Shown here: positions 39,810-60,164 of the stretch, piece by piece
Layout: each line of letters begins with the position of its first letter
Position numbering within the stretch: the first letter of the stretch is position 1
DNA from: an uncultured Candidatus Poseidoniales archaeon
Lineage (GTDB): Archaea; Thermoplasmatota; Poseidoniia; Poseidoniales; Poseidoniaceae
Assembly: GCA_905182715.1 (NCBI GenBank)
Contig: CAJJCP010000015.1
Coordinates: 11,170 to 75,169 of the forward strand
Length of the DNA: 64,000 bases
Direction: 5' to 3'
Program-made: the position numbers and the translations under genes
Notes under the pieces: generated by a model
Seen by the model: the letters and a program-made list of their open reading frames with translations, nothing else
Told to the model about the DNA's origin: nothing
Database searches by the model: none

Positions 39810-40418
39810 ATGTGTGAAAGCATATACCGACCACCGGTGGCAACTATTCGAAAGGCATTGATTCTTGGACTTGTCCTCAGTCTCTTTTTGGCACCTTGCC
39901 TTGTGACACCCGCCGCAGCACAAGGCTCACCGCTTCCCGCTGTCGAGTTAGATTGCGGTTCAGATCCAATCATGGATGTCCATCCTACATCGGATGCTGA
40001 GGCCTCAGTGATCTGCACCGTTACCAACCCGACTTCAGCAAGCGAAGAGATCAGTATTTCAGAAGTTGAATGGGATGGGGTATTGGTGGAAATGTCCTTG
40101 AGCGAAGATAGTTTCACGCTTGGTGCTGGTGAAGAAGATACTTTCGAGATTCGTTTTATCGGTCAGACGAAAATCCCAGCAACAGTCCAACATTCCTTCG
40201 AGATTGAAGCCAAGGTAGAATCTTGGAATGGTCTTCCTTACGGACAATTGCCTGAAGATGGATTTTGGGTTGTCAATACCTCTCATATTGGCGACTTAAA
40301 GATACAAAGTTACGGTATGGTCGAGTTACTGCTCTCCGATGTTACAACACGTTACATGGACACCAATGATGAAGTTGAATTCAGTTTTCAGGTGACCAAC
40401 AAGGGGAACTGCCGATGA
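39810..40418 (+). CDS. Surface protein fragment (signal peptide + beta-sandwich, CARDB-like end)
   Basis: This is the longest intact ORF of the disrupted gene. It ends ..VEFSFQVTNKGNCR*. Confidence 0.6.
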   Translation: MCESIYRPPVATIRKALILGLVLSLFLAPCLVTPAAAQGSPLPAVELDCGSDPIMDVHPTSDAEASVICTVTNPTSASEEISISEVEWDGVLVEMSLSEDSFTLGAGEEDTFEIRFIGQTKIPATVQHSFEIEAKVESWNGLPYGQLPEDGFWVVNTSHIGDLKIQSYGMVELLLSDVTTRYMDTNDEVEFSFQVTNKGNCR

Positions 40419-40690
40419 CAAATTGGAAGTTGTATTTCGCGAATGCTGCTGAACTTGAAGCGATGGGTTTCTCGTTCCCAGGGGGGAAACTCGTCAGTGA
40501 AAATGTCGATTACCAAGGAACTTCTTCTGTCAAAACACTCACTATCCGGGCACCTTCTGATGTGAGTTCAGACCTCCGAATGCCGTTATAGATCCGTGCT
40601 CAGAGTACAATTGATGATTCTGCTCCTTTCAGCGAGATAAATATCCAAATCGACATCAAAGCCTCCAGTAAATCTGGTGGTATCGATGGG

Positions 40691-40879
40691 TTGGACGCCT
40701 TAAGTTCGGATGATACCTTACTGTATGCTTCAATTGCAGGAGGGGCGATACTGGTCATTCTTTTCCTTGTTGTATTGGTCCGAGTCGTTTCCAAGAAGAA
40801 ACCAAAGAAGCAATCCAAGCCTAAACTGCATCAACCGATTATTCTGCCCGATGAACCTGTTCGAACTCTCTGGGGATGA
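40691..40879 (+). CDS. Surface protein fragment (TM anchor + basic stop-transfer)
   Basis: LLYASIAGGAILVILFLVVLVRVVSKKKPKK. The same frame is open upstream back to the TAG at 40589-40591. Confidence 0.5.
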   Translation: MDALSSDDTLLYASIAGGAILVILFLVVLVRVVSKKKPKKQSKPKLHQPIILPDEPVRTLWG

Positions 40880-41076
40880 AGAATTTGATGATTTCTTTTC
40901 AGACCTCGACGAGGAAACAGTCGAACGTGGATGAATTTGACGATTTATTGGATGAATTCTAACGGCTTCGGCTCTCGAAAGAGGGTTGCTGAACAACGGT
41001 TTTCATCGACTCAACTTAGGCAACAGTCATAGGTTGGGTGTGACGGCCAACACTTGCCCATTGGGTAGGTGCATTT

Positions 41077-41871
41077 ATGCTCAAATTACAAGGAAAGACT
41101 GCCTTCGTCTTCGGCGTTGCTAGTGAAGACTCCATCGCATGGGCTATTTGCCAACAACTTGCAGCAGCAGGCGTCACTTTGTACCTCGGATATCAGAAGC
41201 GTTTCATGAGTCGAGTTTTCCAGTTGAAGGATAAATTGCCTCAAATTGGTGGATTCTATCCTCTCGATGTGGCTGAAGATGCTTCAACCAGTGAGTTCTT
41301 TGAAGCATTTGAAAAAGAACACCCAGGGGTGAAAGCAGATATTCTGGTCCACGCAATTGGCTTTGCCCCACGGGCTTGTTTCGACCGGCCTATTCTTTTC
41401 GTTGAAAACGAGGACATCAATACAGCGATGACCATCTCAGCCAATTCCCTACAACGTTGTTTGAAGTATGCCTTGCCTTACCTCAATCCTGGTTCATCGA
41501 CCATCACGCTCACCTATGCTGCCTCAAATCGATTTGTACCAAATTATGGAATCATGTCGATGGCGAAAGCAGCACTCGAATGTTGGACGCGGGAATTGGC
41601 CTGCCACCTTGGGCCAGAAGGGCACCGAGTGAATGCCATCTCTTCAGGCCCTATACGGACCATTGCTGCAGGAGGAGTGCCTGGATTTGATAATATTCTC
41701 GACCATGTCGAAGCCAACTCCCCCCTCCGACGAAACGTCAGCCAAGAGGATGTAGCAGGTGCAGCTCTTTGGCTTGCAAGTTCTCTTTCGAGTGGCGTAA
41801 CGGGTCAATGCATCTATGTCGACGGTGGTTATTCCATCACGATGGTACCGCAAAGTATCATGAATGAATGA
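41077..41871 (+). CDS. fabI: Enoyl-[acyl-carrier-protein] reductase, FabI type (SDR)
   Basis: GKTAFVFGVASEDSIAWAICQQLAAAGVTLYLGY matches the FabI N-terminus. NYGIMSMAKAALE carries the Y..M..AK catalytic motif, and RVNAISSGPIRT is present. TAGGTG lies 5 nt upstream. Confidence 0.85.
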   Translation: MLKLQGKTAFVFGVASEDSIAWAICQQLAAAGVTLYLGYQKRFMSRVFQLKDKLPQIGGFYPLDVAEDASTSEFFEAFEKEHPGVKADILVHAIGFAPRACFDRPILFVENEDINTAMTISANSLQRCLKYALPYLNPGSSTITLTYAASNRFVPNYGIMSMAKAALECWTRELACHLGPEGHRVNAISSGPIRTIAAGGVPGFDNILDHVEANSPLRRNVSQEDVAGAALWLASSLSSGVTGQCIYVDGGYSITMVPQSIMNE

Positions 41872-41880
41872 GGTGAACAA

Positions 41881-42084
41881 ATGGTCAAAGATGCGAAAGG
41901 AAACGAAGTCGGAGGGCTTGAACAAGGTCCGTTTGAACCCATTGCAGTCATTGGCGTATCTGCATTGATGCCCGATGCTCCCGACATTGATGCATTTTGG
42001 CAGAACATTATCGACGCTAAAGTAAGTATTCGAACGATACCTGAGCATCGTTGGATTGGACCGGCTGAGCACTTTTTTCCGTGA
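41881..42084 (+). CDS. Ketosynthase fragment 1 (N-terminus)
   Basis: GGTGA lies 4 nt upstream. EPIAVIGVSALMPDAPDIDAFWQNIIDAKVSIRTIPEHRW is a typical type-I KS N-terminus. Confidence 0.7.
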   Translation: MVKDAKGNEVGGLEQGPFEPIAVIGVSALMPDAPDIDAFWQNIIDAKVSIRTIPEHRWIGPAEHFFP

Positions 42085-42481
42085 AGGCGGACCAGGGGAT
42101 ATCGAAGAAGGATTCACCTATGCACGTATTGGTGCGGTTGTTGAAGGCTATGATTTCGATTGGCGTCGTTGGAGATTACCTCCGGGGACATTACCTCAAA
42201 TTGACCTTGCTCAACAATGGGCTGTTTCAGTTGCTGCCTCAGCCATTGAACACGCTGGATATGATGGAGAATCCAAAGACATCGACCGACTACGTACAGG
42301 TGTTGCTTTTGCAAATGCGCTTGGCGGGGAAAACCGTAATTTGTCGAATATTCGAATTTATTCAAATCATACCAAAGAATTAGCGAAATCTCAAGGTATG
42401 CCCGAAGAAAACAGTGCTGCTTTTATCGACTCCATCGTAGAGGGAGCCCCTCGTATCAATGAAGACACAATGCCCTGGTGA
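42056..42481 (+). CDS. Ketosynthase fragment 2
   Basis: DFDWRRWRLPPGTLPQIDLAQQWAVSVAASAIEHAGY. Entry into this frame is at the T6 run at 42074-42079. Confidence 0.7.
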   Translation: MDRLSTFFREGGPGDIEEGFTYARIGAVVEGYDFDWRRWRLPPGTLPQIDLAQQWAVSVAASAIEHAGYDGESKDIDRLRTGVAFANALGGENRNLSNIRIYSNHTKELAKSQGMPEENSAAFIDSIVEGAPRINEDTMPW

Positions 42482-43427
42482 ACTTGCCAATGTTGTAGCA
42501 GGCCGTGTCTCGAATCTTCTCGACCTTCAAGGTCCAAATTTCGCCATGGATGCTGCATGTGCTTCATCGTTAGCAACGTTGATGGAAGCATGCCGGTTGC
42601 TGCAAATGCGCCAAGTCGATGTCATGATTGCTGGAGCTACAGATCGGAGTATGGATGCTCCAACCTTTGCTAAGTTTAGCGCAATAGGCGCTCTTTCTGC
42701 CTCTCACTCCACTCCCTTCGATGCTGGGGCCAACGGTTTCGTGATGGGGGAAGGTGCTGGAGCATTTGTCCTCAAGCGTCTTTCTGATGCAATCCGAGAT
42801 GGTGACGAAGTCCATGCTGTTATTCGCGGCGTTGGAGGCTCATCCGACGGTCGTGGCAAAGGTATCACGGCACCGAGTCAACGAGGTCAGATTCAGGCGA
42901 TTGCCCGTGCCTATTCACAAGCAGAATACGATGCTACAACCGTCGAATTAATCGAGGCTCACGGAACATCAACCAAAGTCGGCGATGCAACTGAACTTGG
43001 GACTCTTTCTTTGCTTTGGGATGGGATGCCAGCAGGCGATAACGTCGCCGTTGGCTCAATCAAGTCACAAGTCGGCCATTTGAAGGCTGCAGCCGGTATT
43101 GCCGGTCTCATCAAAGCGGTAATGGCACTCCACCACCGGACAATACCTCCGTCTGCAGGTTTCAACACTCCAAATCCTACAGTTGATTGGGACAGTAATC
43201 CATTCTTCGTTCCGACACAGGCGCGAGAATGGCCCCGTCCTACCGCACATCCACGCCGAGCAGGAGTTTCTGCTTTCGGATTTGGAGGAACGAATTATCA
43301 CGTTGCACTCGAAGGATTCGAACCTGAATACCATTCTGAATTAGCCCAACAATGGGACTTGCGATGGGATGCTTATTCGAAAACGAATCCTCTTCCATCA
43401 CAAAATCAATGCTGCCTCAATTCTTGA
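42459..43427 (+). CDS. Ketosynthase fragment 3 (catalytic core)
   Basis: PGELANVVAGRVSNLLDLQGPNFAMDAACASSLATL carries the active-site Cys (codon 42558-42560). EAHGTSTKVGD, SIKSQVGHLKAAAG and VSAFGFGGTNYH are also present. Confidence 0.85.
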   Translation: MKTQCPGELANVVAGRVSNLLDLQGPNFAMDAACASSLATLMEACRLLQMRQVDVMIAGATDRSMDAPTFAKFSAIGALSASHSTPFDAGANGFVMGEGAGAFVLKRLSDAIRDGDEVHAVIRGVGGSSDGRGKGITAPSQRGQIQAIARAYSQAEYDATTVELIEAHGTSTKVGDATELGTLSLLWDGMPAGDNVAVGSIKSQVGHLKAAAGIAGLIKAVMALHHRTIPPSAGFNTPNPTVDWDSNPFFVPTQAREWPRPTAHPRRAGVSAFGFGGTNYHVALEGFEPEYHSELAQQWDLRWDAYSKTNPLPSQNQCCLNS

Positions 43428-43477
43428 TGCTTCAGCCACCCCTTCAATGTCACATGAGGAAATGAAAGCGGTCGAAG

Positions 43478-44179
43478 GTGGAATTCTTCTCCTCTCTGCA
43501 GCGCGACCTTTCTTCTCTTCAAACGAAATTAGAAGCGGTTGGATTTACTGGGGCTCATTTCGATGAAGACCCTCGCGGATTGCGGCTCTCTTCTGCTTTG
43601 AATGCAGCCTCTTCTCATTACGATGCGTCAGAGGCATTTCGCATGTGCATCGTTGCTACTTCTTGGAATGAATATCACAAGCGCATCGAACTCGCGAGTA
43701 AAGCGATGAACGATCCTGAGAAATGGGGCTTCTTACAGGCTCAAGGCATTCTTTTGACCAACGACCCAGCACTCCATCCGAAAGCCAAAGTTGCGCACAT
43801 GTATCCTGGTCAAGGAAGTCAATATGTTGGGATGACGCATGATTTGCATCAGCGTTACACTGCAGTTCAGAAAGTATGGGCTCAAGCCGATGAAACAATG
43901 GTCGAGGTTCTCGACGGAGAGAGTTTGTCGAGTTTCGTTCTGCGTTCGAATCTCTCAAAAGAGCAACGAGTAGAGGCGGAACATAAACTCAAGCAAACCG
44001 AATATACTCAACCAGCCATGCTTACTGCTGATTTGGCAATAGAACGCGCACTCAATGACCATGGGCAGATGCCTGATATGGTTGCTGGGCATTCACTTGG
44101 GGAATATGCCGCGCTTGATGTCTGCAGGAATCTTAGACATGGACGGCGCCCTACGTGCTTCCGCAGCGCGAGGTACTGA
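43478..44179 (+). CDS. Acyltransferase fragment 1
   Basis: AHMYPGQGSQYVGM and MVAGHSLGEYAAL carry the active-site Ser. Confidence 0.8.
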   Translation: MEFFSSLQRDLSSLQTKLEAVGFTGAHFDEDPRGLRLSSALNAASSHYDASEAFRMCIVATSWNEYHKRIELASKAMNDPEKWGFLQAQGILLTNDPALHPKAKVAHMYPGQGSQYVGMTHDLHQRYTAVQKVWAQADETMVEVLDGESLSSFVLRSNLSKEQRVEAEHKLKQTEYTQPAMLTADLAIERALNDHGQMPDMVAGHSLGEYAALDVCRNLRHGRRPTCFRSARY

Positions 44180-44810
44180 AATGGGTTCAGTTGTCATTGA
44201 TGACAAGGGCTTGATGGCCAGTGTGATGGCGCCATACGATGACGTTGCATCTATCCTCGAATCAATAGATGGCTATGTTATTGCTGCCAACAAAAATTCA
44301 CCAAAAATGACCGTTATTGCAGGCGAAACTGAACCTGTTCAACAAGCGATGGTTTTGTTTGAAGAGAAGGGTTTCCAATGCGTACCTTTGGCAACATCAC
44401 ATGCTTTCCACTCCCGTATTGTTGCACCAGCCAATGAACCACTGCGCCGATTCCTCGAAAGTCTTGAGATCCGTTGGCCTTCAATTCCAATCACTGCCAA
44501 CGTTGATGGTTCATTCTATCCGATGGAAGGGGAAGATTCCAAAGCAGGAATCTTAGGGAAACTGGCACCTCAAATGGCTTCGGCAGTCGAATGGACGACA
44601 CAGATTGAAACCATGTATGCAGCAGGAGCACGTGCCTTCATTGAAGTCGGTCCAAAGCGAGCATTAACCATGTTTGCAGTTCAAATTCTAGAAGACCAAC
44701 CACATTTGCCAATTATGTCGAATCATCCAAAACAAGGTGGAATTGCAACATTCCTGAGCTGCACTTGGAACTTTGGCATTAGCAGGCCGTCAACCTCAAT
44801 GGCCAGCTGA
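44055..44810 (+). CDS. Acyltransferase fragment 2
   Basis: MSAGILDMDGALRASAARGTEM continues directly from GHSLGEYAAL. ATSHAFHSRIV is the HAFH motif associated with malonyl specificity. Confidence 0.8.
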   Translation: MTMGRCLIWLLGIHLGNMPRLMSAGILDMDGALRASAARGTEMGSVVIDDKGLMASVMAPYDDVASILESIDGYVIAANKNSPKMTVIAGETEPVQQAMVLFEEKGFQCVPLATSHAFHSRIVAPANEPLRRFLESLEIRWPSIPITANVDGSFYPMEGEDSKAGILGKLAPQMASAVEWTTQIETMYAAGARAFIEVGPKRALTMFAVQILEDQPHLPIMSNHPKQGGIATFLSCTWNFGISRPSTSMAS

Positions 44811-45204
44811 TGATTCATCAGTTCTAACTGAAGCCTTCCGTGCAGGCCCAATGGAGGCATACTACGCCACCTCGACACCTGTACATTCAACTGCTGAAAT
44901 GGATGACTTGAGGACACGTTCACGCCCCTTGCCTTCTACGGCAAGTCCAGTGCCAATTGTACAACAAGTCGTTGTTCAATCTGCAACGACTCAACCACTC
45001 GACCCTGAAGTGGCTGCTGCCAAAGCCAAGACTGCTTACATCGGCGACCGTCTTGCCGCAATAAGTGGTTATCCTGCCGGATTCTGTCATGGGATGGTCA
45101 ATCTCCGTCTTGGACTCGGCATGAGTGATGCAGAAGTTTCGTCTGTGATTCAAACGCTTTCAAGTGAAACACAAACCGATGCGCGATTGATATTTCAACA
45201 GTAG
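44773..45204 (+). CDS. Post-AT linker plus degenerate carrier-like domain
   Basis: LAAISGYPAGFCHGMVNLRLGLGMSDAEVSSVIQTL aligns to the downstream ACP repeats ([33 protein letters not shown]). It has no Ser or Thr at the attachment position. It ends at TAG 45202-45204. Confidence 0.55.
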   Translation: MALAGRQPQWPADDSSVLTEAFRAGPMEAYYATSTPVHSTAEMDDLRTRSRPLPSTASPVPIVQQVVVQSATTQPLDPEVAAAKAKTAYIGDRLAAISGYPAGFCHGMVNLRLGLGMSDAEVSSVIQTLSSETQTDARLIFQQ

Positions 45205-45235
45205 TTACGGCGAGCTGATTTGACGAAATGGGTCG

Positions 45236-46744
45236 TTGCTGCACCGTCTTCTTGGATTCCAAAAACCTCAGTACTTCAAGCAACAAAGACCCAAGTCGAA
45301 CCGGCTACAAGTCTCTGCTTCTGCAGGTTATGCAGACCGCCGCCTCACTGACCCGTATGTGATTACAGGTATTTCTCTTGGCCTTCCAGGTGGTGAACGT
45401 GTCTTCGATGAAGATACCTTTGAGCGATTGGTTCGTGGCGAAACTTGCCTTTCTGAAGTGAGTGATGAATACAAACAACGTCTTCTCGACAAAAACATTG
45501 TACGTCTCATCAAAGGCCGAGATGGTTCGGTAAATATGGACCAAGCCACAGAGTTTGGTGACATACCGCAACTTGCAGGTATTAAATCGGCATTTGACAT
45601 TTCTGAAGAATTCGGAATCGACCCAAAGGTTGTACTCGCCTGGGATATCACGACTCAACTTGCTGTGGCTGCAGGCCTTCTTGCACTTCGCGATGCAGCA
45701 ATTCCTCTTACGCCAGTTGAACAAATTGGCAAAGGCGGATTGCGTCTGATTCGTAATTGGCAAGTGCCTCAAATTCATCGTGAACGAACTGGAATTGTAT
45801 TTGCTTCTTGTTTCCCCGGACTTCAAATGGCTATGAAACACGCAAAGAGTAACGGCGATGATGGTGAAGGCCGATTCGACCGGCGATATTTATTCCAAAC
45901 CTTGAACATGGGCCATTCCCAATTCGCTCAATATTCCGGAATACGTGGGCCAAATACAACCATCAATCTTGCATGTGCTTCAACAACTGCAGCTTTTGGT
46001 GTGGCTGAAGATTGGCTCAACAGTGACCGTGTTGACCGAGTTGTAATTCTTTCAGCAGATGATGTCACAGGTGAAGATTTGTGGGAATGGATTGGAGGCG
46101 GATTTGCTGCTTCCGGTGCGGCTGCTACAGGCAATGTCATCGAAGAAGCAGCGTTACCATTTGACCGACGCCGTAATGGATTGGTGCTTGGCATGGGGGC
46201 GGCAGCATTCGTCATTGAACGCCATTCAGAAGCAAAAGCACGCGGTGTTCAACCGATTGCTGAACTTCTTGGAACCCGTACAGCTAATTCCGCGTTCCAT
46301 GGTACACGACTTGATGTTGACCACGTTGCAGAAACTGTCAATTCTTTTATGAGTTCAATGGAGCAACAATGGGGTATTAACCGGCATGTAATGGCACCAG
46401 ACACGGTCTTCTTTTCACATGAAACCTATACACCTGCCCGTGGAGGTTCGGCTCAATCCGAAGTACGAGCCTTGCGTGAAACGTTTGGAGAAAGTACTGA
46501 CAGTTTGGTTATTGCGAACACGAAAGGATTCACTGGCCATCCAATGGGTGTTGGAATCGAAGACGCGAGTATGTTCCATGGCATGAAGACAGGACGAATC
46601 CCTCCGATTGCCAATCATAAGGAAACGGATCCAGAACTTGGAAATCTCAACCTCTCCAAGGGTGGCGATTATTCAGACATTCCAATATGGATTACGCTTT
46701 GCAGCAGGTTTTGGTTCTCAAATGGCTCTTTCCTTGGTCCGTAA
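45236..46744 (+). CDS. Second ketosynthase (catalytically complete C-H-H, not a chain-length-factor)
   Basis: Motifs are VITGISLGLPGG, TINLACASTTAAFG (Cys), FFSHETYTPARGG (His) and NTKGFTGHPMGVG (His). The C-terminal end of the KS (YGLRFAAGFGSQMALSLVRKW) is read in the next frame, after a +1 shift near 46682. Confidence 0.8.
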   Translation: MLHRLLGFQKPQYFKQQRPKSNRLQVSASAGYADRRLTDPYVITGISLGLPGGERVFDEDTFERLVRGETCLSEVSDEYKQRLLDKNIVRLIKGRDGSVNMDQATEFGDIPQLAGIKSAFDISEEFGIDPKVVLAWDITTQLAVAAGLLALRDAAIPLTPVEQIGKGGLRLIRNWQVPQIHRERTGIVFASCFPGLQMAMKHAKSNGDDGEGRFDRRYLFQTLNMGHSQFAQYSGIRGPNTTINLACASTTAAFGVAEDWLNSDRVDRVVILSADDVTGEDLWEWIGGGFAASGAAATGNVIEEAALPFDRRRNGLVLGMGAAAFVIERHSEAKARGVQPIAELLGTRTANSAFHGTRLDVDHVAETVNSFMSSMEQQWGINRHVMAPDTVFFSHETYTPARGGSAQSEVRALRETFGESTDSLVIANTKGFTGHPMGVGIEDASMFHGMKTGRIPPIANHKETDPELGNLNLSKGGDYSDIPIWITLCSRFWFSNGSFLGP

Positions 46745-49700
46745 ATGGCCCGTAGTTGGAGAACGAATCGACGGGCAACGTTTCCTTGCATGGAATCGTT
46801 CTCTGGCCAATACTGAGGATGTTGTGATGCGTATTCTCGATAACAAACTTGTTGCTTACATCAATGGTGATGACCGTCTTCATGGAGGTGTACAAGGTGA
46901 ACCCTGGCCGATTACTGCGGCATGGGAAGGCAAACCTTCCGAAATTCTCCCTCCGCCTCTACCGGACCCTGTTCAAGCAACTCCACTCGTTGTAGAACCG
47001 ACTGTCCAACCCGTATCTGTAGTTCCTTCACCTGCTTCAAACGATGTAGATTTGGTTTCAACAGTGATTGAAGTCGTCGTCAATCACACTGGATATCCGG
47101 CAGATTTCGTTGAATTAGACCAAGACCTCGAGGGGGAGTTGGGCATTGATACTGTCAAGCAGGCAGAAATTATGGCGGACATCCGTGAACGGTTTGCCCT
47201 TCCTCTTGATGAAGAATTTGTCCTTTCAGACTATCCAACCCTCACTCATATGATTGGCTATATCCAAAAGATGACAACGGGCGGCATACCTCTTCCTATC
47301 GTAACCCCACTCCTCGCATCAGCAGTGAGTGAAGCCTCTGCTGCACCAACTCCCATCGACATTCCAGTTGAAGTTCCGCAGATTGAAAGCAATGAGCAAC
47401 TGGTGAACTTAGTTGTGGAAGTCGTCGTCCAGCATACCGGTTATCCTGCAGACTTTGTTGAACTTGACCAAGATCTCGAAGGTGAACTGGGCATTGATAC
47501 TGTGAAGCAGGCGGAAATTATGGCTGATATCCGAGAACAATTTACACTTCCATTGGATGAAGACTTTGTGCTTTCAGACTATCCTACATTGAACCATATG
47601 ATTGGTTACATTCAACGTATGCAAGGTGGCTCGCCAATGGTGAAACCAACTCCCACTTCATCCGTAGCCGCTCCTTCACCAATGCCAGCACAACCAATAA
47701 CGGTTCCATCACCATCACCAGCAGTTGAAGTTATTGAAGACTCAGATCTAACCTCGATTGTCGTTGAGGTCGTTGTCCAGCATACGGGTTATCCGAGCGA
47801 TTTCATTGAACTTGACCAAGACCTCGAAGGGGAATTAGGCATTGATACTGTGAAGCAGGCGGAAATTATGGCGGATATCCGAGAACGATTTACGCTTCCA
47901 CTCGATGAAGATTTCGTTCTTTCGGATTACCCAACGCTCAATCACATGATTGGTTACATTCGAAGAATGAAAGGAGGGACTTCAGCACCGATTGCGACAG
48001 TTGCGCCTGCACCAGTTGCTCCAGTACAACCAGCCACGGTAACTCCTCAACCGAGTACACCAACTGTTGTTGCACTTGCTCCTTCGACCGCAGATTCTAA
48101 CATCCAAGAACAATTAATTGAAGTTGTAGTTCGGCATACTGGCTATCCAAATGATTTCATTGAATTAGATCAAGACCTTGAAGGTGAACTGGGCATTGAT
48201 ACAGTGAAGCAGGCAGAAATTATGGCGGATGTTCGAGATATATTCGAACTTCCTCTCGATGAAGATTTTGTTCTTTCGGACCATCCTACCTTGAATCATT
48301 TCACTGCTTACATTCATCGAATGAAAGGTGGTTCGGCTGTTGAAGCTCCATCTGCGTCTGCAGTAGCCGAAGCCGCACCTGTTGCTGTGGCGCCCGTTGT
48401 TGAGCCAGTAGTGGCTGAAATTGAACGTCAAGAGAATTGTCGCCGATGGCAAGTTGAGGTAGAAGGCTGCCCCGGTACCAGTTCTTTGTTAGCACTCGAA
48501 GGAACCATCGTAGTTACTGATGATGGCTGGGGAATCGCAGAAGCCTTTTGCCAACGCGTAGAAGCACGTGGAATGCGTGCAGTGCGTATCGGGTTTGAAA
48601 GTGAAATACGGGACATGTCAAGCCATCAAGAAGCAGGCCGTACCGTTTATCGAGCAGACCCTGCAAATCCAGAACACCTCGCATTGGTCTGCAAAGAACT
48701 CGAACAATTGAATGTAGCGGGATTGGTTCACATGGCTCCTATGAAGCTCGCAGGAGCATCATGGGGTGATGACACACAGCCTTCGTCACAGATTGCATTA
48801 TCTGCACATGGGTATTTCTCTCTCCTCCAAGGATTAGATGCTCACCTTGCATCACGTAAAGATGGTCTTGTAGCCTCTGTGACTGCCATGGATGGACGGC
48901 ACGGAAACATCGGAGAGCGGTTCAACTCAGTTCAATGCGCTGCATCTGGCGTGACGAAATCATATTACTTTGAACAAACACATTTACGAATGCGTGCTCT
49001 CGACTTACATCCAGAACTTATTCTCGATGCAGACCAAGCCGCTGAACACATTGACTCAGACCTGTTTGAAATCGGTGGCGAAATTGAAATTGGATTAGAC
49101 CGCGATGGTCGCCGGTGGACACTTGTCGCCTTTGCTGAAGATCTTGAAAAGGAGATGACTCCATTGCAATCGGATGATACCTGGATTGTTTCAGGAGGTG
49201 GCTCTGGAGTTACTGCAGCCTCAATCATCGGCGTTGCATGCAACTCCCTCAATGCAGGGGCCCACTTTGCCCTCCTTGGACGTTCAACTCTGTTGGAAGA
49301 AACTGAAACGTGGGTTGAATGGTCTCCTTCTCGATTAGATGAGCAAAAGAACGCTCTTCGTGAAGAACTGATGGCAGCCAGTGAATCGGGTAAGGTTACG
49401 ATGGTTGAATGGAATACAGCTTGGCAAAAATATTCTCGCAGTCGAGACGTCTACATCACCATCAAAACGATTCAAGAAACTGGAAATGATGCATCGTATC
49501 ACTCAGTTGATGTCATGGACACCGATGGTTTGAAACAACTTGGTGCCTCTCTAGGCCGTCCTATTACCGGAATTATTCATGGTGCAGGTCTCGAAGATTC
49601 AAAGCTAGTTGCTTCGAAAGATTACAATGTATTTGACAAAGTTATCCGAGTGAAAATCGACGGATGGCACTCTCTTTTGTCGGCAGTAGAAGCCTCAAGT

Positions 49701-51056
49701 GGTGAACTTCGTTTTGCTTCATGCTTTACCAGTGTTTCAGGACGGTTTGGTAATAATGGTCAAACTGATTATTCTGCAGCAAACAGCGTTCTTGATGCAG
49801 AAATGGCTCGATTGACTGCAAGCGGCTCATGTCGCGCTGTTGCTATTGCATGGACAGGCTGGAGAGATGTCGGTATGGCAACTCGTGGCTCATTCCAAGC
49901 AGTATTTGATGCTGCAGGAATTGATACTATCTCCGTAGAAAAGGGTGTTGAAATCTTTGTTGATGAGGCACTACGTGGCGGTAAACGCCGAGTGCTTGGC
50001 TGTGGGAACCTTGGGACAATGGATGCATTTGACGCATTCCGCGAAGCCCCTCTCCGCCTTCCTGCAGAGATGACGAGCATTATCGCTGACCCGTTTCGCT
50101 TCCCTTTTATCGACAAAGTACTCTCCGTTGATGAACGACAATCATTGACGACCCAAACGACTCTTTCAGTTGCCGAACATCCATTCCTCTCAGACCATGC
50201 CATCGACGGAGTTCCGTATCATCCCGGTGTTATGGCTTTGGAGATGTTTGCAGAGAACGCCCTTTTGCTACGCCCATCAGCCTGCCTTGCCGGATTCGAA
50301 GATGTGTCGTTCGGTCTTCCTGTAAAACTCTTGAAAGGTGAAATGGCAGTTCGTGTTCATGCGGAATTGATTCGAGGTGACGGTGAGATGAGTTGGATTG
50401 CATGCCGTTTACTGTCCGATTTGTCAAATTCAAAGGGAGAGGTGTTTGGAGAACGAGAACACCACAAGGCCATTGTCCGAGTTGTTGAACGTCGAGAAGA
50501 CCTTGGTCCATTCTTGCAATCTGAAGTCGAGGCTTTGCCACAACTTGGCACGCCGGCACTTGGTGAATTAGTCGAACTACCATCGTTCATTTACCGACGT
50601 TATTTCCACGGCCCTCGTTTCCAATCTCACGGAGGAGTCCTTCGCGGCATAGGTGATGCAGAAACCCCTGGGGCAGATGGAATTGCTCTTATGCGTCACC
50701 AACTGCCAATATTGGACCAATTTGCCCTTGAGGCACAAGGCGAAGTCGTTCTTTTGGAATCGCTTCCAATGCTGATTGAGGCAGGTTTCCAAAACGCAGG
50801 TTTAGTCGCAATGGAATCCGAAGGTTTCTCTTCACTACCCGTCGGTATTGAATGGTCGTCGATGCTCCGAGTTCCAGAACGCAATGAAGTTCTTCGAATG
50901 AGAAGTCTTCGAACTGCAGTTGAAGATGCAGGTATCACAGTCCACGATGTAGTCGTGGTTGGTGATGACGATGCACCAGTTATTGCGCTCAAAGGATTAC
51001 GTCTCAAGAGCATGGCTCCTGTACCTGAGGGTGAGTCCTTTACCCTTGAGAGGTGA
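46608..51056 (+). CDS. ACP x4 - ketoreductase - PKS-type dehydratase (continuation of the second KS after a frameshift)
   Basis: There are four tandem carrier domains. The KR shows WIVSGGGSGVTAASIIG, IIHGAGLEDS and GQTDYSAANSVLD. The PS-DH shows HPFLSDHAIDGVPYHPGV (HxxxGxxxxP). The TTG at 46608 is only an ORF-caller artefact; meaningful sequence begins at about 46683. Confidence 0.85.
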   Translation: MPIIRKRIQNLEISTSPRVAIIQTFQYGLRFAAGFGSQMALSLVRKWPVVGERIDGQRFLAWNRSLANTEDVVMRILDNKLVAYINGDDRLHGGVQGEPWPITAAWEGKPSEILPPPLPDPVQATPLVVEPTVQPVSVVPSPASNDVDLVSTVIEVVVNHTGYPADFVELDQDLEGELGIDTVKQAEIMADIRERFALPLDEEFVLSDYPTLTHMIGYIQKMTTGGIPLPIVTPLLASAVSEASAAPTPIDIPVEVPQIESNEQLVNLVVEVVVQHTGYPADFVELDQDLEGELGIDTVKQAEIMADIREQFTLPLDEDFVLSDYPTLNHMIGYIQRMQGGSPMVKPTPTSSVAAPSPMPAQPITVPSPSPAVEVIEDSDLTSIVVEVVVQHTGYPSDFIELDQDLEGELGIDTVKQAEIMADIRERFTLPLDEDFVLSDYPTLNHMIGYIRRMKGGTSAPIATVAPAPVAPVQPATVTPQPSTPTVVALAPSTADSNIQEQLIEVVVRHTGYPNDFIELDQDLEGELGIDTVKQAEIMADVRDIFELPLDEDFVLSDHPTLNHFTAYIHRMKGGSAVEAPSASAVAEAAPVAVAPVVEPVVAEIERQENCRRWQVEVEGCPGTSSLLALEGTIVVTDDGWGIAEAFCQRVEARGMRAVRIGFESEIRDMSSHQEAGRTVYRADPANPEHLALVCKELEQLNVAGLVHMAPMKLAGASWGDDTQPSSQIALSAHGYFSLLQGLDAHLASRKDGLVASVTAMDGRHGNIGERFNSVQCAASGVTKSYYFEQTHLRMRALDLHPELILDADQAAEHIDSDLFEIGGEIEIGLDRDGRRWTLVAFAEDLEKEMTPLQSDDTWIVSGGGSGVTAASIIGVACNSLNAGAHFALLGRSTLLEETETWVEWSPSRLDEQKNALREELMAASESGKVTMVEWNTAWQKYSRSRDVYITIKTIQETGNDASYHSVDVMDTDGLKQLGASLGRPITGIIHGAGLEDSKLVASKDYNVFDKVIRVKIDGWHSLLSAVEASSGELRFASCFTSVSGRFGNNGQTDYSAANSVLDAEMARLTASGSCRAVAIAWTGWRDVGMATRGSFQAVFDAAGIDTISVEKGVEIFVDEALRGGKRRVLGCGNLGTMDAFDAFREAPLRLPAEMTSIIADPFRFPFIDKVLSVDERQSLTTQTTLSVAEHPFLSDHAIDGVPYHPGVMALEMFAENALLLRPSACLAGFEDVSFGLPVKLLKGEMAVRVHAELIRGDGEMSWIACRLLSDLSNSKGEVFGEREHHKAIVRVVERREDLGPFLQSEVEALPQLGTPALGELVELPSFIYRRYFHGPRFQSHGGVLRGIGDAETPGADGIALMRHQLPILDQFALEAQGEVVLLESLPMLIEAGFQNAGLVAMESEGFSSLPVGIEWSSMLRVPERNEVLRMRSLRTAVEDAGITVHDVVVVGDDDAPVIALKGLRLKSMAPVPEGESFTLER
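47043..48325 (+). repeat. Four in-frame tandem repeats (period about 348-354 bp) encoding carrier-protein domains separated by Pro/Ala/Val/Ser-rich linkers
   Basis: A near-identical DNA core, ..GACCAAGA(C/T)CT(C/T)GA(A/G)GG(G/T)GA..GGGCATTGATAC(T/A)GT(C/G)AAGCAGGC(A/G)GAAATTATGGC.., begins at about 47121, 47469, 47817 and 48171. Confidence 0.9.
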
Positions 51057-51057
51057 G

Positions 51058-51816
51058 ATGATGGCATTTGAGGAAATTTTTCCTCCACATCAACTCCCAG
51101 TCCGGTCTCTGTGCTTTCGTTGCCCTGTTGAAGCACGTGAGCTCGAACAGGTAACGCTTGCTTCTGTTGATGAAGTCGCTACTTTCGCCGTTGATAAACG
51201 GCGTGATGAGCATTTGTCTGGACGTTGGCTTTTGGCACAAGCGCTCGATCGTTGGGGTCTTGACCCCACTCAACTCGAAGTACGTCGGACTGAATTGCGT
51301 GCTCCAGTTCTCGCCTACCTCTCCGGAATCTGGGTCAATACCCCTCTTCCTTCGATGAGTATTGGCCATGCCGGAGGCTGGGCTTATGTTGCGTTAATCG
51401 AACCTGGTTGGTCTATTGGGATTGATGCTGAACCAGCCGAACGTGGAATCGCTTCAAACGCGTTTGATATGATGGCGAAAGGGGATGAATTACTTTGGTT
51501 ACAGAAAAACCCTGAGCAAGCGATTCAGCTTTGGACAGCAAAGGAATCTGTTCAAAAGGCCATGCAAATGGGGATGCACCTCAACCCTCGTAAAATTGAA
51601 ATTCCAATTGGACTAGGTGTTGTAAATATTTCAATTGAAAATTCAAAAATTCAATTGCAAAGTTGGGCTTTTCTAGGTTCAAGGATTGCGCTTGCATGGC
51701 GCCAAGGTTCAGTCGGTTTAAGAACCTCTGAAGATGATCTGTTAGATGTGACGAAAAAAGCGATGAGTGAACAAGAATGGGGTGTCGGCTGTAAAACCAG
51801 TCGAGGGAATGTCTGA
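51058..51816 (+). CDS. Sfp-type 4'-phosphopantetheinyl transferase
   Basis: Motifs are SIGHAGGWAYVAL, IGIDAEP and LWTAKESVQKAMQMG (the W/F..KES..K motif). AGGTGA sits just upstream of ATGATG at 51058. The ORF is open from 50959 and overlaps the megasynthase end. Confidence 0.8.
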   Translation: MMAFEEIFPPHQLPVRSLCFRCPVEARELEQVTLASVDEVATFAVDKRRDEHLSGRWLLAQALDRWGLDPTQLEVRRTELRAPVLAYLSGIWVNTPLPSMSIGHAGGWAYVALIEPGWSIGIDAEPAERGIASNAFDMMAKGDELLWLQKNPEQAIQLWTAKESVQKAMQMGMHLNPRKIEIPIGLGVVNISIENSKIQLQSWAFLGSRIALAWRQGSVGLRTSEDDLLDVTKKAMSEQEWGVGCKTSRGNV

Positions 51817-58520: not shown

Positions 58521-60164
58521 GTGTCCAAACGTTATCCTTCTCCTGATGAAGGGGTAGTTGTTTCAAATAGGGGTCGAAAAGAACAACATCTGATGGGAAC
58601 TGATAGTCAAACCTGCGTTGGTATCGATGACATTGCCATTCACTTCCCACGTTTGTACATGGATATGAGGGATTTCGCAGAATTGCGAGGTGCCGACTTT
58701 GGCAAGTTAAACAAGGGGCTCGGTCTTGAAGCCATGTCTATTCCTGATGTTCACGAGGATACTGCAACGATGGGCGCTATGGCGGTCATGCAAATCATTG
58801 ACCGTAATGGGCTTGACCCAAATACGATAGGTCGTATGTATCTTGGAACTGAATCTGCTTTGGATGGTGCCAAACCCACCGCTACATACATTGTGGACAT
58901 GCTCACTCAACGCTATGAAGAACGCTATGGCTCCGATTGCTTCAGAAACTGTGATGTCGTCGACATGACCTTCGCTTGTATTGGTGCTGTAGACGCCTTA
59001 CATACGACCCTTGACTGGGTCGCTCGCTCAAACGAAAACGATGAACGAATCGGAATTGTGATCTTCTCAGACAATGCCAAATATGCTTTGGAATCTTCTG
59101 GCGAATACACACAAGGTGCCGGTGGCGGTGCGTTACTCATTCGTAGAAATCCTCGACTTCTCGAGATTCCAGATTGCTTTGGCGTCTCGACAACACCGGT
59201 TCACGATTTCTTCAAACCTCGGCGAGAAGTTAGCATTCGTTCTGTGATTACGAACGTCATGCAACTTGCTCAAGAAACCGGTCAAACAATGAAGAAAGGC
59301 CTCATTGAAAGAATGATTCGTCATTTACCAGAATCAACAGTTCGGAAATTAGGAATCTTTGCTCACGGTGAACAAAAAGTCAGCGTTCACCGAGATGACC
59401 CAATTTTCGATGGCCAATACTCCAATCGCTGTTACCAAGACGCCGTCCGACAAGCTTTCCACAATTTCTCTATGAAATCAGAAAAGCAAGGCCGATATAA
59501 TCACCAAAAAGATATCCGCCTTACGGAGCAATGGTCACGCATCATCATGCATTTACCGTATGCTTTCCAAGCGAAGCGGATGTTCCCTGACATCTTTAGG
59601 CACGACCGCCAAGATACAGAATATTGGAAGTCGATTGCTGAACAACTTGGCCCTATGCCTGCGGAACATAACTCCGAAGACCCTCTCATCATCGAGATTT
59701 GGGAGAAAGCCATGGATGGTTATCGTCGAGCCATTTCCAAAACTCCAGAATACCTTGATTTCCATGCGAGCCGAATTGAAAAGGGACAGCGAGCAAGTAG
59801 CTTGATTGGAAACCAATACACCGGCTCAATCTTCCTTGCACTGATGTCCACCTTTGAGTCAGATTTGGAAGAGAACAGCAACCTTGACAATGAATTGTTC
59901 GGTCTATGTGGCTACGGTTCTGGCGCTAAAGCAAAAGTATTCGAAGGAAAAGTAAGTCCACGTTGGAGAGAAGTTGTTTCTCGGTGGCATTTGTTTGAAC
60001 GTCTTGGTGGCCGTGTTGCCATTGACCATATCACCTATGAGAATCTCCACAAGGGCTTGCAAGACGACAGTGTCGTCACTCCAAAGAGTGAGTTTGCTCT
60101 CATTGAGATCGGTGATGAAGGTGTCGATGAAGGCGCACGTCGTTACAAATGGATTGGCGCTTAA
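58521..60164 (+). CDS. Hydroxymethylglutaryl-CoA synthase, long bacterial/eukaryal-like form
   Basis: Motifs are VGIDDIAIHFPRLYMDMRDFAELRG, YLGTESALDGAKP (catalytic Glu region), MTFACIGAV (Cys), QGAGGGALLI, GNQYTGSIFL and GYGSGAKA. The start is either GTG 58521 or ATG 58593. Confidence 0.85.
   Translation: MSKRYPSPDEGVVVSNRGRKEQHLMGTDSQTCVGIDDIAIHFPRLYMDMRDFAELRGADFGKLNKGLGLEAMSIPDVHEDTATMGAMAVMQIIDRNGLDPNTIGRMYLGTESALDGAKPTATYIVDMLTQRYEERYGSDCFRNCDVVDMTFACIGAVDALHTTLDWVARSNENDERIGIVIFSDNAKYALESSGEYTQGAGGGALLIRRNPRLLEIPDCFGVSTTPVHDFFKPRREVSIRSVITNVMQLAQETGQTMKKGLIERMIRHLPESTVRKLGIFAHGEQKVSVHRDDPIFDGQYSNRCYQDAVRQAFHNFSMKSEKQGRYNHQKDIRLTEQWSRIIMHLPYAFQAKRMFPDIFRHDRQDTEYWKSIAEQLGPMPAEHNSEDPLIIEIWEKAMDGYRRAISKTPEYLDFHASRIEKGQRASSLIGNQYTGSIFLALMSTFESDLEENSNLDNELFGLCGYGSGAKAKVFEGKVSPRWREVVSRWHLFERLGGRVAIDHITYENLHKGLQDDSVVTPKSEFALIEIGDEGVDEGARRYKWIGA

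What the first reader, a model, noticed from the sequence alone, without database searches (positions are those of the whole stretch)
47043..48325. All four tandem carrier domains carry Thr instead of the phosphopantetheine-accepting Ser
Each repeat reads DQDLEGELGID-T-VKQAEIMAD. The Thr codons are at 47151-47153 (ACT), 47499-47501 (ACT), 47847-47849 (ACT) and 48201-48203 (ACA). In canonical ACP/PCP domains this position (LG.DS.., e.g. LGIDSIK in PfaA ACPs) is a nearly invariant Ser that receives 4'-phosphopantetheine. Four independent repeats agree, and one uses a different codon, so this is not a single-base error. A dedicated Sfp-type PPTase sits next door. Possible readings are O-phosphopantetheinylation on Thr, another prosthetic chemistry, or non-loadable scaffold domains.
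Basis: partly seen in the sequence, partly recalled or inferred. Interest (0 to 1): 0.75.

Follow-up and report, generated by a model that had tools for sequence, protein, structure and literature searches.

The report
Carrier domains with threonine acceptor site
All four acyl-carrier domains of this marine archaeal fatty-acid/polyketide-type synthase have threonine where carrier proteins normally have the cofactor-bearing serine, and this is a conserved trait of a large, little-studied enzyme family whose chemistry has not been tested.

Summary
All four repeats read GELGIDTVKQAE, with Thr codons ACT, ACT, ACT and ACA at the stated coordinates. Sequence and structure alignments place the Thr at the start of helix II, where other carrier proteins have the phosphopantetheine-accepting Ser.

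It is not a peculiarity of this gene. The gene is a "Type R secondary lipid synthase" (Shulse & Allen 2011): KS-AT-KS'-ACPn-KR-DH followed by a PPTase. Here it sits in a Poseidoniaceae (Marine Group II) archaeon. Across 385 fetched relatives the site is Thr 663-672 times, Ser 230-233 times and Ala once. The Thr motif occurs in at least 120 loci from species-representative genomes of many bacterial and archaeal phyla.

Inside the family, Ser and Thr have swapped in about four lineages. The layout stays the same and a PPTase is always adjacent or fused. No other Ser in the repeat is conserved. The most likely reading (about 0.65) is O-phosphopantetheinyl-threonine installed by the dedicated Sfp-type PPTase. 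This has not been tested.

Ten full-text literature searches found no report of it. E. coli ACP S36T is documented as unmodifiable.

Separately, the synthase's 5' half in this window carries about 15 window-specific single-base indels (about 20 including an upstream gene), probably assembly errors.

The parts
41077..41871 (+). FabI-like enoyl-ACP reductase, encoded directly upstream of the synthase
   Evidence: Pfam adh_short_C2 E 1.4e-70. NCBIfam FabI models score up to E 7.9e-68, below their equivalog cut-offs. It occupies the same position in L001, L002 and L004.
41881..51056 (+). Whole Type R synthase gene (KS-AT-KS'-ACP4-KR-DH), about 3,050 aa once corrected. In this window it is broken into at least 7 reading-frame pieces between 41881 and 46744.
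   Evidence: The start ATG at 41881 matches the start of the intact 1712-aa ORF in L002. ORF pieces are listed. The window-specific indels are listed. Full-length single-polypeptide relatives are P0121 (3278 aa) and P0124 (3076 aa).
41881..43427 (+). First ketosynthase (KS) domain, in three frame pieces
   Evidence: Pfam ketoacyl-synt, Ketoacyl-synt_C and KAsynt_C_assoc match ORFs 42056-42481 and 42459-43427.
43478..44810 (+). Acyltransferase (malonyl-CoA:ACP type) domain, in two frame pieces
   Evidence: Pfam Acyl_transf_1 matches both ORFs. FabD-like by NCBIfam in the intact L002 protein.
45236..46750 (+). Second KS-like domain (the 'CLF' of Shulse & Allen). It keeps the active-site Cys (INLACAST).
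   Evidence: Pfam ketoacyl-synt E 2.4e-14. An ACAS/ACAT/ACSS Cys is present in 58 of 65 Thr-type relatives that have enough upstream sequence.
47043..47297 (+). ACP repeat 1; Thr codon ACT at 47151-47153
47391..47645 (+). ACP repeat 2; Thr codon ACT at 47499-47501
   Evidence: AlphaFold2 model and Foldseek matches.
47739..47993 (+). ACP repeat 3; Thr codon ACT at 47847-47849
48093..48347 (+). ACP repeat 4; Thr codon ACA at 48201-48203
49443..49868 (+). Ketoreductase (KR) core
   Evidence: Pfam KR E 1.8e-24, residues 946-1087 of ORF 46608-51056.
50103..51017 (+). PKS-type dehydratase (DH)
   Evidence: Pfam PKS_DH_N residues 1166-1256 (above cut-off) and PS-DH residues 1387-1470 (18.9 bits, below its 23.7-bit cut-off).
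51058..51816 (+). Sfp-type 4'-phosphopantetheinyl transferase; its start codon lies 2 nt after the synthase stop
   Evidence: Pfam ACPS and 4PPT_N. More than 400 Poseidoniales homologs. Invariant D123, E125, W159, K162, E163 and K167 align to the GIDIE and WsmKEsfiK motifs of Sfp in 1QR0/4MRT. AlphaFold2 pLDDT 88. Best Foldseek hits are AASDHPPT, Sfp, PptT and PcpS.

Best explanation
The four domains are genuine acyl carrier domains of a Type R secondary lipid synthase, a PfaA-like iterative KS-AT-KS'-ACPn-KR-DH megasynthase with a FabI-like reductase upstream and its own PPTase downstream. In this family the cofactor-accepting residue at the start of helix II is Thr rather than Ser. The most likely mechanism is that the co-encoded Sfp-type PPTase transfers 4'-phosphopantetheine from CoA to the Thr side-chain hydroxyl. 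The resulting holo-ACPs would carry malonyl and growing acyl thioesters between the KS, KR, DH and ER active sites, exactly as Ser-linked ACPs do. Shown here: the position, fold and conservation of the Thr, the Ser/Thr interchange, the PPTase linkage and the intact PPTase catalytic motifs. Inferred: that Thr is actually modified, and that the PPTase has adapted to a secondary alcohol. Unknown: the lipid product.
For: (1) The Thr occupies the canonical site by sequence and by predicted structure.
(2) The site is under strict selection for a hydroxyl residue. Flank-anchored counts over 385 fetched proteins give Thr 663-672, Ser 230-233, Ala 1 and nothing else, and no protein mixes Ser and Thr. 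In the 120 genome loci, 277 of 277 motifs are Thr, using all four ACN codons.
(3) Ser and Thr are interchangeable within the family. Four Ser-bearing lineages (P0065; P0078/82/84; P0093-95/104; P0225) are each closer in their KR-DH region to a Thr-type protein (38-51% identity) than to any other Ser lineage. Two Ser-type archaeal loci keep the same layout, with the PPTase directly downstream. Their Ser codons, TCG and TCT, are one change away from ACG and ACT.
(4) A PPTase is tightly coupled to Thr-only synthases. It starts 2 nt after the stop in the window, overlaps the stop in L001, and lies directly downstream or is covalently fused in at least 24 loci from Elusimicrobium minutum, Heimdallarchaeota, Myxococcales, Anaerolineae, Acidobacteria and others. 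P0117 has the PPTase domains fused to a four-Thr-ACP protein.
(5) The PPTase keeps all catalytic residues of Sfp and an Sfp-type fold, and it is conserved in more than 400 Poseidoniales sequences.
(6) No alternative acceptor exists. In 582 unique Thr-type repeats no Ser is conserved, and the LSD serine is present in only 31%.
(7) The neighbouring residue covaries with the acceptor: TV 656 and TI 7, against SI 226 and SV 7. This is as expected if the extra methyl of Thr is compensated at a packed interface.
Against: There is no biochemical evidence, and I found no precedent for phosphopantetheinyl-threonine in the literature I could search. In E. coli, ACP S36T cannot be modified with 4'-phosphopantetheine and is non-functional (PMC3340395), so Thr is not a trivially accepted substitute. 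I could not identify any PPTase feature that explains Thr acceptance. The synthase copy in this window is frameshifted upstream of the ACPs, so this particular copy may not be expressed as a whole. Whether the host genome holds other, Ser-type carrier proteins that the PPTase could serve was not testable from 64 kb.
Confidence: 0.65

Rival explanations
1. The Thr-ACPs are never loaded. They act as structural spacers or docking domains, and intermediates travel on CoA or on another carrier.
For: E. coli ACP S36T is not modified. Archaea generally lack ACP-dependent fatty acid synthesis (general knowledge). No direct evidence of modification exists.
Against: Unloaded scaffolds would tolerate Ala, Gly or Asn at the site, yet only Thr or Ser is seen in about 900 repeats, with a single Ala. 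A catalytically intact PPTase is adjacent, overlapping or fused across phyla. The synthase contains no other carrier domain. Ser-type sister lineages with the same layout would then have to work differently.
Confidence: 0.12
2. The Thr hydroxyl carries something other than canonical 4'-phosphopantetheine. Examples are a different CoA-derived group or a direct O-acyl ester. Alternatively, Thr tunes the stability of the linkage, for instance resistance to beta-elimination or to ACP phosphodiesterase, as part of a regulatory scheme.
For: Strict Thr conservation together with TV/SI covariation shows selection for Thr specifically in most lineages, not merely tolerance. The Poseidoniales PPTases carry a conserved extra C-terminal segment (...PEDxLLxATRxAM...WGVGCKT) that is absent from one Ser-type neighbour's PPTase.
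Against: The PPTase has the standard Sfp catalytic motifs and fold, which argues for ordinary CoA chemistry. Ser-type relatives use the same layout. A direct O-ester on the ACP surface could not reach buried KS, KR or DH active sites (inference from known ACP mechanics).
Confidence: 0.1
3. Phosphopantetheine is attached to a different residue of each repeat, for example the Ser of VLSDYPT. The Thr would then be only a structural substitution.
For: Each window repeat does contain a Ser in LSD(Y/H)PT.
Against: That Ser is present in only 31% of 582 Thr-type repeats (Arg 42%, Ala 13%), and no other Ser is conserved. It aligns with the Phe of the FDHPT-type motif before helix IV of PKS ACPs (my knowledge), which is not a PPTase-accessible site.
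Confidence: 0.03
4. The Thr is an artefact or a sign of decay, arising from a sequencing error or a dead gene.
For: The 5' half of the same gene in this window carries many frameshifting indels.
Against: Four codons agree, and they use two different codons. Identical Thr motifs occur in near-identical independent assemblies (L002, L003, L004) and in hundreds of distant homologs. The ACP-KR-DH part has no indel in the window's reading frame. Against L002 it shows 14 synonymous and 2 non-synonymous codon differences, plus one indel-affected codon at the alignment edge.
Confidence: 0.01

Closest known systems
Type R secondary lipid synthase cluster (Shulse & Allen 2011, PLoS One 6:e20146; PMC3098273)
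   Same: A single pfaA homolog with KS-MAT-CLF-ACP(3-6)-KR architecture, followed by a PPTase gene and with no pfaB/C/D. The window has the same order plus a DH and an upstream FabI-like ER. A genome of Elusimicrobium minutum, one of the species that define Type R, carries four Thr-type ACPs and a PPTase 13 nt downstream (L115).
   Different: The paper lists only bacteria (Acidobacteria, Elusimicrobia, Chloroflexi), whereas this locus is archaeal (Poseidoniaceae). The paper never mentions serine or threonine (0 occurrences), and the product is uncharacterised. Its 'CLF' keeps an active-site Cys here.
PfaA of bacterial and thraustochytrid PUFA synthases (TIGR02813)
   Same: Tandem ACPs followed by KR and a PKS-type DH, with KS and AT at the N-terminus and a dedicated Sfp-type PPTase (PfaE). 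PfaA is the best NCBIfam match. The TGYP...DLGID.(I/V)K framework of the ACP is shared.
   Different: PfaA ACPs read LGIDSIKRVE, with Ser. The window protein scores 392.6 bits and its intact N-terminal counterpart in L002 scores 535.6 bits, both below the 1010-bit cut-off. There is an extra KS-like domain between AT and the ACPs, and no PfaB/C/D partners are nearby.
Canonical carrier proteins (E. coli AcpP, PKS/NRPS ACP/PCP; Pfam PF00550)
   Same: Four-helix fold, with an Asp-hydroxyl residue pair at the N-terminus of helix II.
   Different: The acceptor is Thr. In E. coli AcpP the S36T change abolishes modification and function (PMC3340395).
Sfp-type (group II) PPTases: Sfp, AASDHPPT, PptT, PcpS, PfaE
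   Same: Two-lobed fold and the catalytic Asp/Glu/Glu/Lys motifs.
   Different: Very divergent: phmmer finds no PDB relative, and only a profile reaches Sfp, at E about 1e-4. It has a conserved C-terminal extension. Its only nearby clients carry Thr.

Membership tests
Carrier protein (Pfam PP-binding, PF00550) | Profile match above the gathering score | tested here: met
   105 bits against a 20.8-bit cut-off, with four stretches.
Carrier protein (Pfam PP-binding, PF00550) | Four-helix-bundle ACP fold | tested here: met
   AlphaFold2 pLDDT 81 with helices 2-16, 37-51, 57-60 and 67-77. Foldseek TM 0.75-0.84 to solved ACPs.
Carrier protein (Pfam PP-binding, PF00550) | Serine acceptor at the N-terminus of helix II (the D-S-L/I motif) | tested here: not met
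   Thr in all four repeats.
Carrier protein (Pfam PP-binding, PF00550) | Post-translational 4'-phosphopantetheinylation | not testable with these tools
   Needs mass spectrometry of expressed protein.
Type R secondary lipid synthase (Shulse & Allen 2011) | One pfaA homolog with KS-MAT-CLF-ACP(3-6)-KR | tested here: met
   The domain order is seen in the window pieces. It is intact as one or two ORFs in L002 and as single polypeptides in P0121 and P0124. The window has 4 ACPs.
Type R secondary lipid synthase (Shulse & Allen 2011) | PPTase gene immediately downstream | tested here: met
   51058-51816, 2 nt after the synthase stop.
Type R secondary lipid synthase (Shulse & Allen 2011) | No pfaB/pfaC/pfaD partners in the cluster | tested here: met
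   Neighbouring ORFs are TBP-like, TatD, a choice-of-anchor T protein, FabI, a small membrane protein and an M28 peptidase.
Type R secondary lipid synthase (Shulse & Allen 2011) | Common ancestry with the reference members | tested here: inconclusive
   The Elusimicrobium minutum locus L115 shares the Thr-ACP motif and the downstream PPTase. Terriglobales, Elusimicrobia and Chloroflexi homologs are found at about 30% identity over about 90% of the query. I made no formal tree that includes the named reference proteins.
Canonical PUFA synthase PfaA (TIGR02813) | Score above the curated cut-off (1010 bits) | tested here: not met
   392.6 bits for the window protein (C-terminal part) and 535.6 bits for the intact N-terminal counterpart in L002.
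Canonical PUFA synthase PfaA (TIGR02813) | PfaB/C/D subunits encoded alongside | tested here: not met
   None within the window around the gene.
Sfp-type PPTase | ACPS and 4PPT_N domains, with the Mg/CoA-binding Asp-x-Glu and W..KE...K motifs | tested here: met
   Pfam hits are above their cut-offs. D123, E125, W159, K162, E163 and K167 are invariant and align to Sfp.
Sfp-type PPTase | Pseudo-dimeric two-lobe fold | tested here: met
   AlphaFold2 pLDDT 88. Foldseek E values 1e-11 to 1e-7 to AASDHPPT, Sfp, PptT and PcpS.
Sfp-type PPTase | Transfers Ppant to a carrier-protein Ser | not testable with these tools
   The only adjacent clients have Thr, so an enzyme assay is needed.

The most novel reading that the evidence does not exclude
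O-(4'-phosphopantetheinyl)-threonine is a real, so far undescribed protein modification. It would be used by an entire, phylogenetically widespread family of PfaA-like lipid megasynthases, including those of the abundant marine Group II archaea and of Heimdallarchaeota. It would be installed by a PPTase lineage adapted to a Thr acceptor that housekeeping PPTases such as AcpS cannot use, making an insulated (orthogonal) carrier/PPTase pair.
Probability: 0.45. Interest if true: 0.8.

Novelty: new variant of a known kind. Interest (0 to 1): 0.62.

Why it matters
The acceptor serine is treated as invariant in carrier-protein biochemistry. Pattern- and rule-based annotation may therefore treat domains without it as inactive (my expectation; not tested here). 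If a whole family uses Thr, three things follow.

- A new protein modification would exist.
- Annotation rules would be miscalling hundreds of megasynthases.
- Thr-ACP/PPTase pairs could serve as orthogonal tagging or pathway-insulation tools.

The locus is also a complete KS/AT/ACP/KR/DH/ER set in Marine Group II archaea. These organisms are suspected of making bacterial-type fatty-acid lipids (PMC6962369, citing Villanueva 2017), so it bears on the "lipid divide" question. If the Thr-ACPs turned out to be dead, the conserved PPTase and synthase would need another explanation.

Tried and rejected
- **Literature.** Ten full-text searches found no report of a Thr acceptor or of this motif. They covered the motif strings DTVKQ, GIDTVK and similar, threonine plus phosphopantetheine phrasings, S36T, MGII plus PKS, and secondary lipid. 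One hit concerned a KS active site and was irrelevant.
- **Alternative acceptor Ser (LSDYPT).** Rejected, because it is only 31% conserved.
- **Programmed frameshift or natural gene split at the KS'/ACP junction.** I considered this because the window, L002, L003 and L004 all break there. I rejected it because the lesions differ. The window has an extra T at 46680. L002 has two private 1-bp insertions. L003 has a single TAG about 110 nt from the contig end. The L004 'break' is a run of N.
- **Pseudogene reading of the 5' half.** Not favoured. Against L002 there are 217 synonymous and 45 non-synonymous codon differences and no in-frame stops. The indels are absent from both L002 and L004.
- **phmmer of the PPTase against the PDB.** It found nothing meaningful, so a profile was needed.
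- **Structure prediction with alignment A2.** I repeated it with A5.
- **PPTase-adjacency scan of 8-kb genome blocks.** This script undercounts, because many synthase ORFs are cut or fragmented. Its result (25 loci flagged, which I report as at least 24) is a lower bound, not a frequency.
- **PPTase residue explaining Thr acceptance.** I did not find one. Too few Ser-type partners were available for a covariation test.
Full report
**1. The observation**

Translating 47043-48325 gives four tandem repeats of about 85 residues, joined by Pro/Ala/Val-rich linkers. Each repeat contains DQDLEGELGIDTVKQAEIMAD.

The repeats share only 67-75% nucleotide identity, with 25-31 synonymous codon differences per pair. 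They are old copies kept similar by selection on the protein, so the shared Thr is not a propagated error.

Three lines of evidence put the Thr at the canonical acceptor site.
- Pfam PP-binding matches all four repeats (105 bits).
- phmmer against the PDB aligns the Thr to the acceptor Ser of PigH ACP1 and ACP2 (LGVDSI, LGIDSV) and of the S. coelicolor FAS ACP.
- An AlphaFold2 model of repeat 2 (pLDDT 81) is a four-helix bundle with Thr37 as the first residue of helix II. It superposes on solved apo-, holo- and acyl-ACPs at TM 0.75-0.84 and about 1.5 Å.

**2. What the gene is**

ORF 46608-51056 is ACP4-KR-DH. It is not a whole gene. Upstream, in other frames, lie pieces of a KS (41881-43427), an AT (43478-44810) and a second KS-like domain (45236-46750).

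In a 97%-identical strain (L002) these pieces form one intact 1712-aa KS-AT-KS' ORF. In cluster representatives P0121 (3278 aa) and P0124 (3076 aa) the whole KS-AT-KS'-ACPn-KR-DH is a single polypeptide.

A FabI-like enoyl reductase sits directly upstream at 41077-41871. An Sfp-type PPTase starts 2 nt after the synthase stop, at 51058-51816.

The window is archaeal. It encodes a TBP-like protein (weak Pfam TBP match) and lies next to a group II chaperonin (Cpn60_TCP1) in the near-identical locus L002. Sources name the homologs Candidatus Poseidoniaceae, that is, Marine Group II.

The layout is exactly the "Type R secondary lipid synthase" of Shulse & Allen (2011). They describe one pfaA homolog, KS-MAT-CLF-ACP(3-6)-KR, plus a downstream PPTase, in Koribacter, Solibacter, Elusimicrobium minutum and Roseiflexus, with an unknown product (PMC3098273). 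That paper does not mention serine or threonine.

The best NCBIfam model is PfaA (TIGR02813), well below its cut-off. The second KS keeps its active-site Cys here and in most relatives.

**3. Thr is a family trait**

- Among the 120 best homologs of the ACP-KR-DH protein, nearly all carry LG(I/V)DTVKQAE. This includes bacterial proteins at about 30% identity, named Terriglobales, Kineosporiaceae, Bacteroidia and Elusimicrobia.
- phmmer of one repeat against 1.84 billion cluster representatives gave 4672 hits at E ≤ 0.001. Among the best 150 proteins I counted 353 Thr motifs and 223 Ser motifs. The Ser motifs belong to canonical PfaA (LGIDSIKRVE) and to a separate LGIDSIKKAQ group. This list is biased toward the query, so the ratio is not a census.
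- A back-translated GIDTVKQAE pattern hit its 120-locus limit in species-representative genomes. The hosts include Poseidoniales, Heimdallarchaeota, Elusimicrobia (including E. minutum), Acidobacteriota, Chloroflexota, Acidimicrobiia, Actinomycetes, Myxococcota, Gemmatimonadota, Rhodothermales and Spirochaetes. Three are isolate genomes: Planobispora takensis NBRC 109077, Amycolatopsis sp. NPDC021455 and Mycolicibacterium xanthum Y57.
- Counting with flank anchors only, the site is Thr 663-672 times, Ser 230-233 times and Ala once. No protein mixes Ser and Thr.
- All four Thr codons are used across the loci.

**4. Evidence on function**

(a) *Only hydroxyl residues occur at the site.* This argues against inert scaffold domains.

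(b) *Ser and Thr have swapped repeatedly inside the family.* Four Ser-bearing lineages are each closer, in the KR-DH region, to a Thr-type protein (38-51% identity) than to any other Ser lineage. Two archaeal Ser-type loci keep the same layout, with the PPTase immediately downstream. Their Ser codons, TCG and TCT, are one change from ACG and ACT.

(c) *The PPTase is bound to Thr-only synthases.*
- It overlaps or abuts the synthase stop codon.
- It lies directly downstream or is fused in at least 24 loci from many phyla.
- It is fused in P0117.
- It is conserved in more than 400 Poseidoniales sequences.
- It retains the residues aligned to the GIDIE and WsmKEsfiK motifs of Sfp, which by my knowledge contain Sfp D107, E109, E151 and K155.
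- It has an Sfp-type fold.

(d) *No other Ser in the repeat is conserved*.

(e) *The next residue covaries with the acceptor.* TV occurs 656 times against TI 7, and SI 226 times against SV 7. This suggests steric compensation for the Thr methyl at a packed interface.

Against this, E. coli ACP S36T cannot be phosphopantetheinylated and does not support growth (PMC3340395). Thr acceptance would therefore need an adapted PPTase. I could not show such adaptation.

**5. Mechanism proposed**

The PPTase transfers 4'-phosphopantetheine from CoA to the Thr hydroxyl of each ACP. The AT loads malonyl units. The KS pair, KR, DH and the trans FabI-like ER iterate to build a fatty acyl chain of unknown length and fate.

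- Shown: the domain inventory, the position of the Thr, its conservation, and the PPTase linkage.
- Inferred: the modification itself and the product.
- Speculative: why Thr is preferred. Greater stability of the phosphodiester, or insulation from housekeeping PPTases and hydrolases, are possibilities.

Confidence that Thr is phosphopantetheinylated is about 0.65.

**6. State of this copy**

Compared with both L002 (a different assembly) and L004 (a scaffolded assembly), the window carries about 20 private single-base indels, all between 40411 and 46681. They break the synthase 5' half and the upstream 382-aa gene. About 15 of them lie inside the synthase gene itself.

None occurs between 47005 and 58000. 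There the window is more than 99.5% identical to L002, against 92-95% upstream.

Substitutions in the broken part are overwhelmingly synonymous (217 against 45 codons), and there are no in-frame stops. I therefore read the indels as assembly or consensus errors, possibly in a strain-chimeric stretch, rather than as gene decay. Only the raw reads can settle this. The Thr conclusion does not depend on it.

**7. Novelty**

The synthase family has been described since 2011. The carrier fold and the PPTase are ordinary. What appears undescribed is the family-wide Thr acceptor. Ten full-text searches found nothing on it, though subscription literature was not covered. I rate it a new variant of a known kind.

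It also marks a complete type I FAS-like system in Marine Group II archaea. Their putative fatty-acid pathway has been noted in the lipid-divide discussion (PMC6962369). The Poseidoniales survey I read does not mention polyketide, acyl carrier or phosphopantetheinyl (PMC6461757).

Noticed in passing
window 40411-46681: About 20 single-base indels are private to this window: 16 fall at identical positions against both L002 and L004, and about 4 more within 1-3 nt. They fragment the synthase 5' half (KS, AT, KS') into at least 7 frame pieces and truncate the upstream 382-aa gene. Substitutions in the same stretch are mostly synonymous (217 against 45 codons), so sequencing or assembly error is more likely than pseudogenisation.
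   Followed up: yes
window ~47005 (compared with L002:9941): There is a sharp step in divergence from the sister strain L002: 5-8% mismatches per 500 nt upstream of about 47.0 kb, and under 0.5% downstream to 58 kb. The boundary lies at the start of the ACP repeats. This suggests either recombination or a strain-chimeric assembly joined at the repeats.
   Followed up: partly
window 31519-37446 (+): A 1975-aa ORF with no Pfam match. It is conserved in position and size (1959, 1955 and at least 1331 aa) upstream of the same TBP-like/TatD/synthase neighbourhood in L001, L002 and L004.
   Followed up: no
window 51058-51816, C-terminal ~30 residues (about 51727-51816); alignment A2: The Poseidoniales PPTases share a conserved C-terminal extension (PEDxLLxATRxAM...WGVGCKT(T/S)R) beyond the Sfp-like core. 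It is absent from the PPTase next to the Ser-type synthase in L125 and only partly present in L126. AlphaFold2 confidence drops in the last 10 residues.
   Followed up: partly
ACP repeats, residue after the acceptor (window 47154-47156 and equivalents): There is strong covariation between the acceptor and the next residue across about 900 repeats. Thr is followed by Val (656 of 663) and Ser by Ile (226 of 233).
   Followed up: partly
L019 (Ca. Heimdallarchaeum aukensis, CP084166.1) and L052 (Heimdallarchaeota): Asgard archaeal genomes also carry Thr-type ACP synthases, here with the PPTase motif fused at the C-terminus of the same ORF.
   Followed up: no
window 39810-40962 (+): This gene matches the NCBIfam 'choice-of-anchor T family protein' (E 3.3e-29 for the intact L002 copy). 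It lies between TatD and FabI, is broken by indels in the window, and is probably a surface protein unrelated to the lipid genes.
   Followed up: partly
window 58521-60164 (+), by near-identity to L002:21530-23101: An HMG-CoA synthase (mevalonate/isoprenoid pathway) lies about 7 kb downstream of the fatty-acid-type synthase. The same proximity is seen in the Ser-type archaeal locus L125.
   Followed up: no
proteins P0142, P0160, P0183 and others: A third large group of tandem-ACP megasynthases, with the Ser motif LGIDSIKKAQ and about 3,000-3,300 aa, turned up among the nearest relatives of the Thr-type ACPs. I did not identify it.
   Followed up: no
L001:8524-9963 and L001:10001-17311: In a 66%-identical Poseidoniales species the first KS is a separate 479-aa gene, and the rest (AT-KS'-ACP3-KR-DH, 2436 aa) is a second gene. 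The subunit split of this synthase therefore varies within the order.
   Followed up: partly
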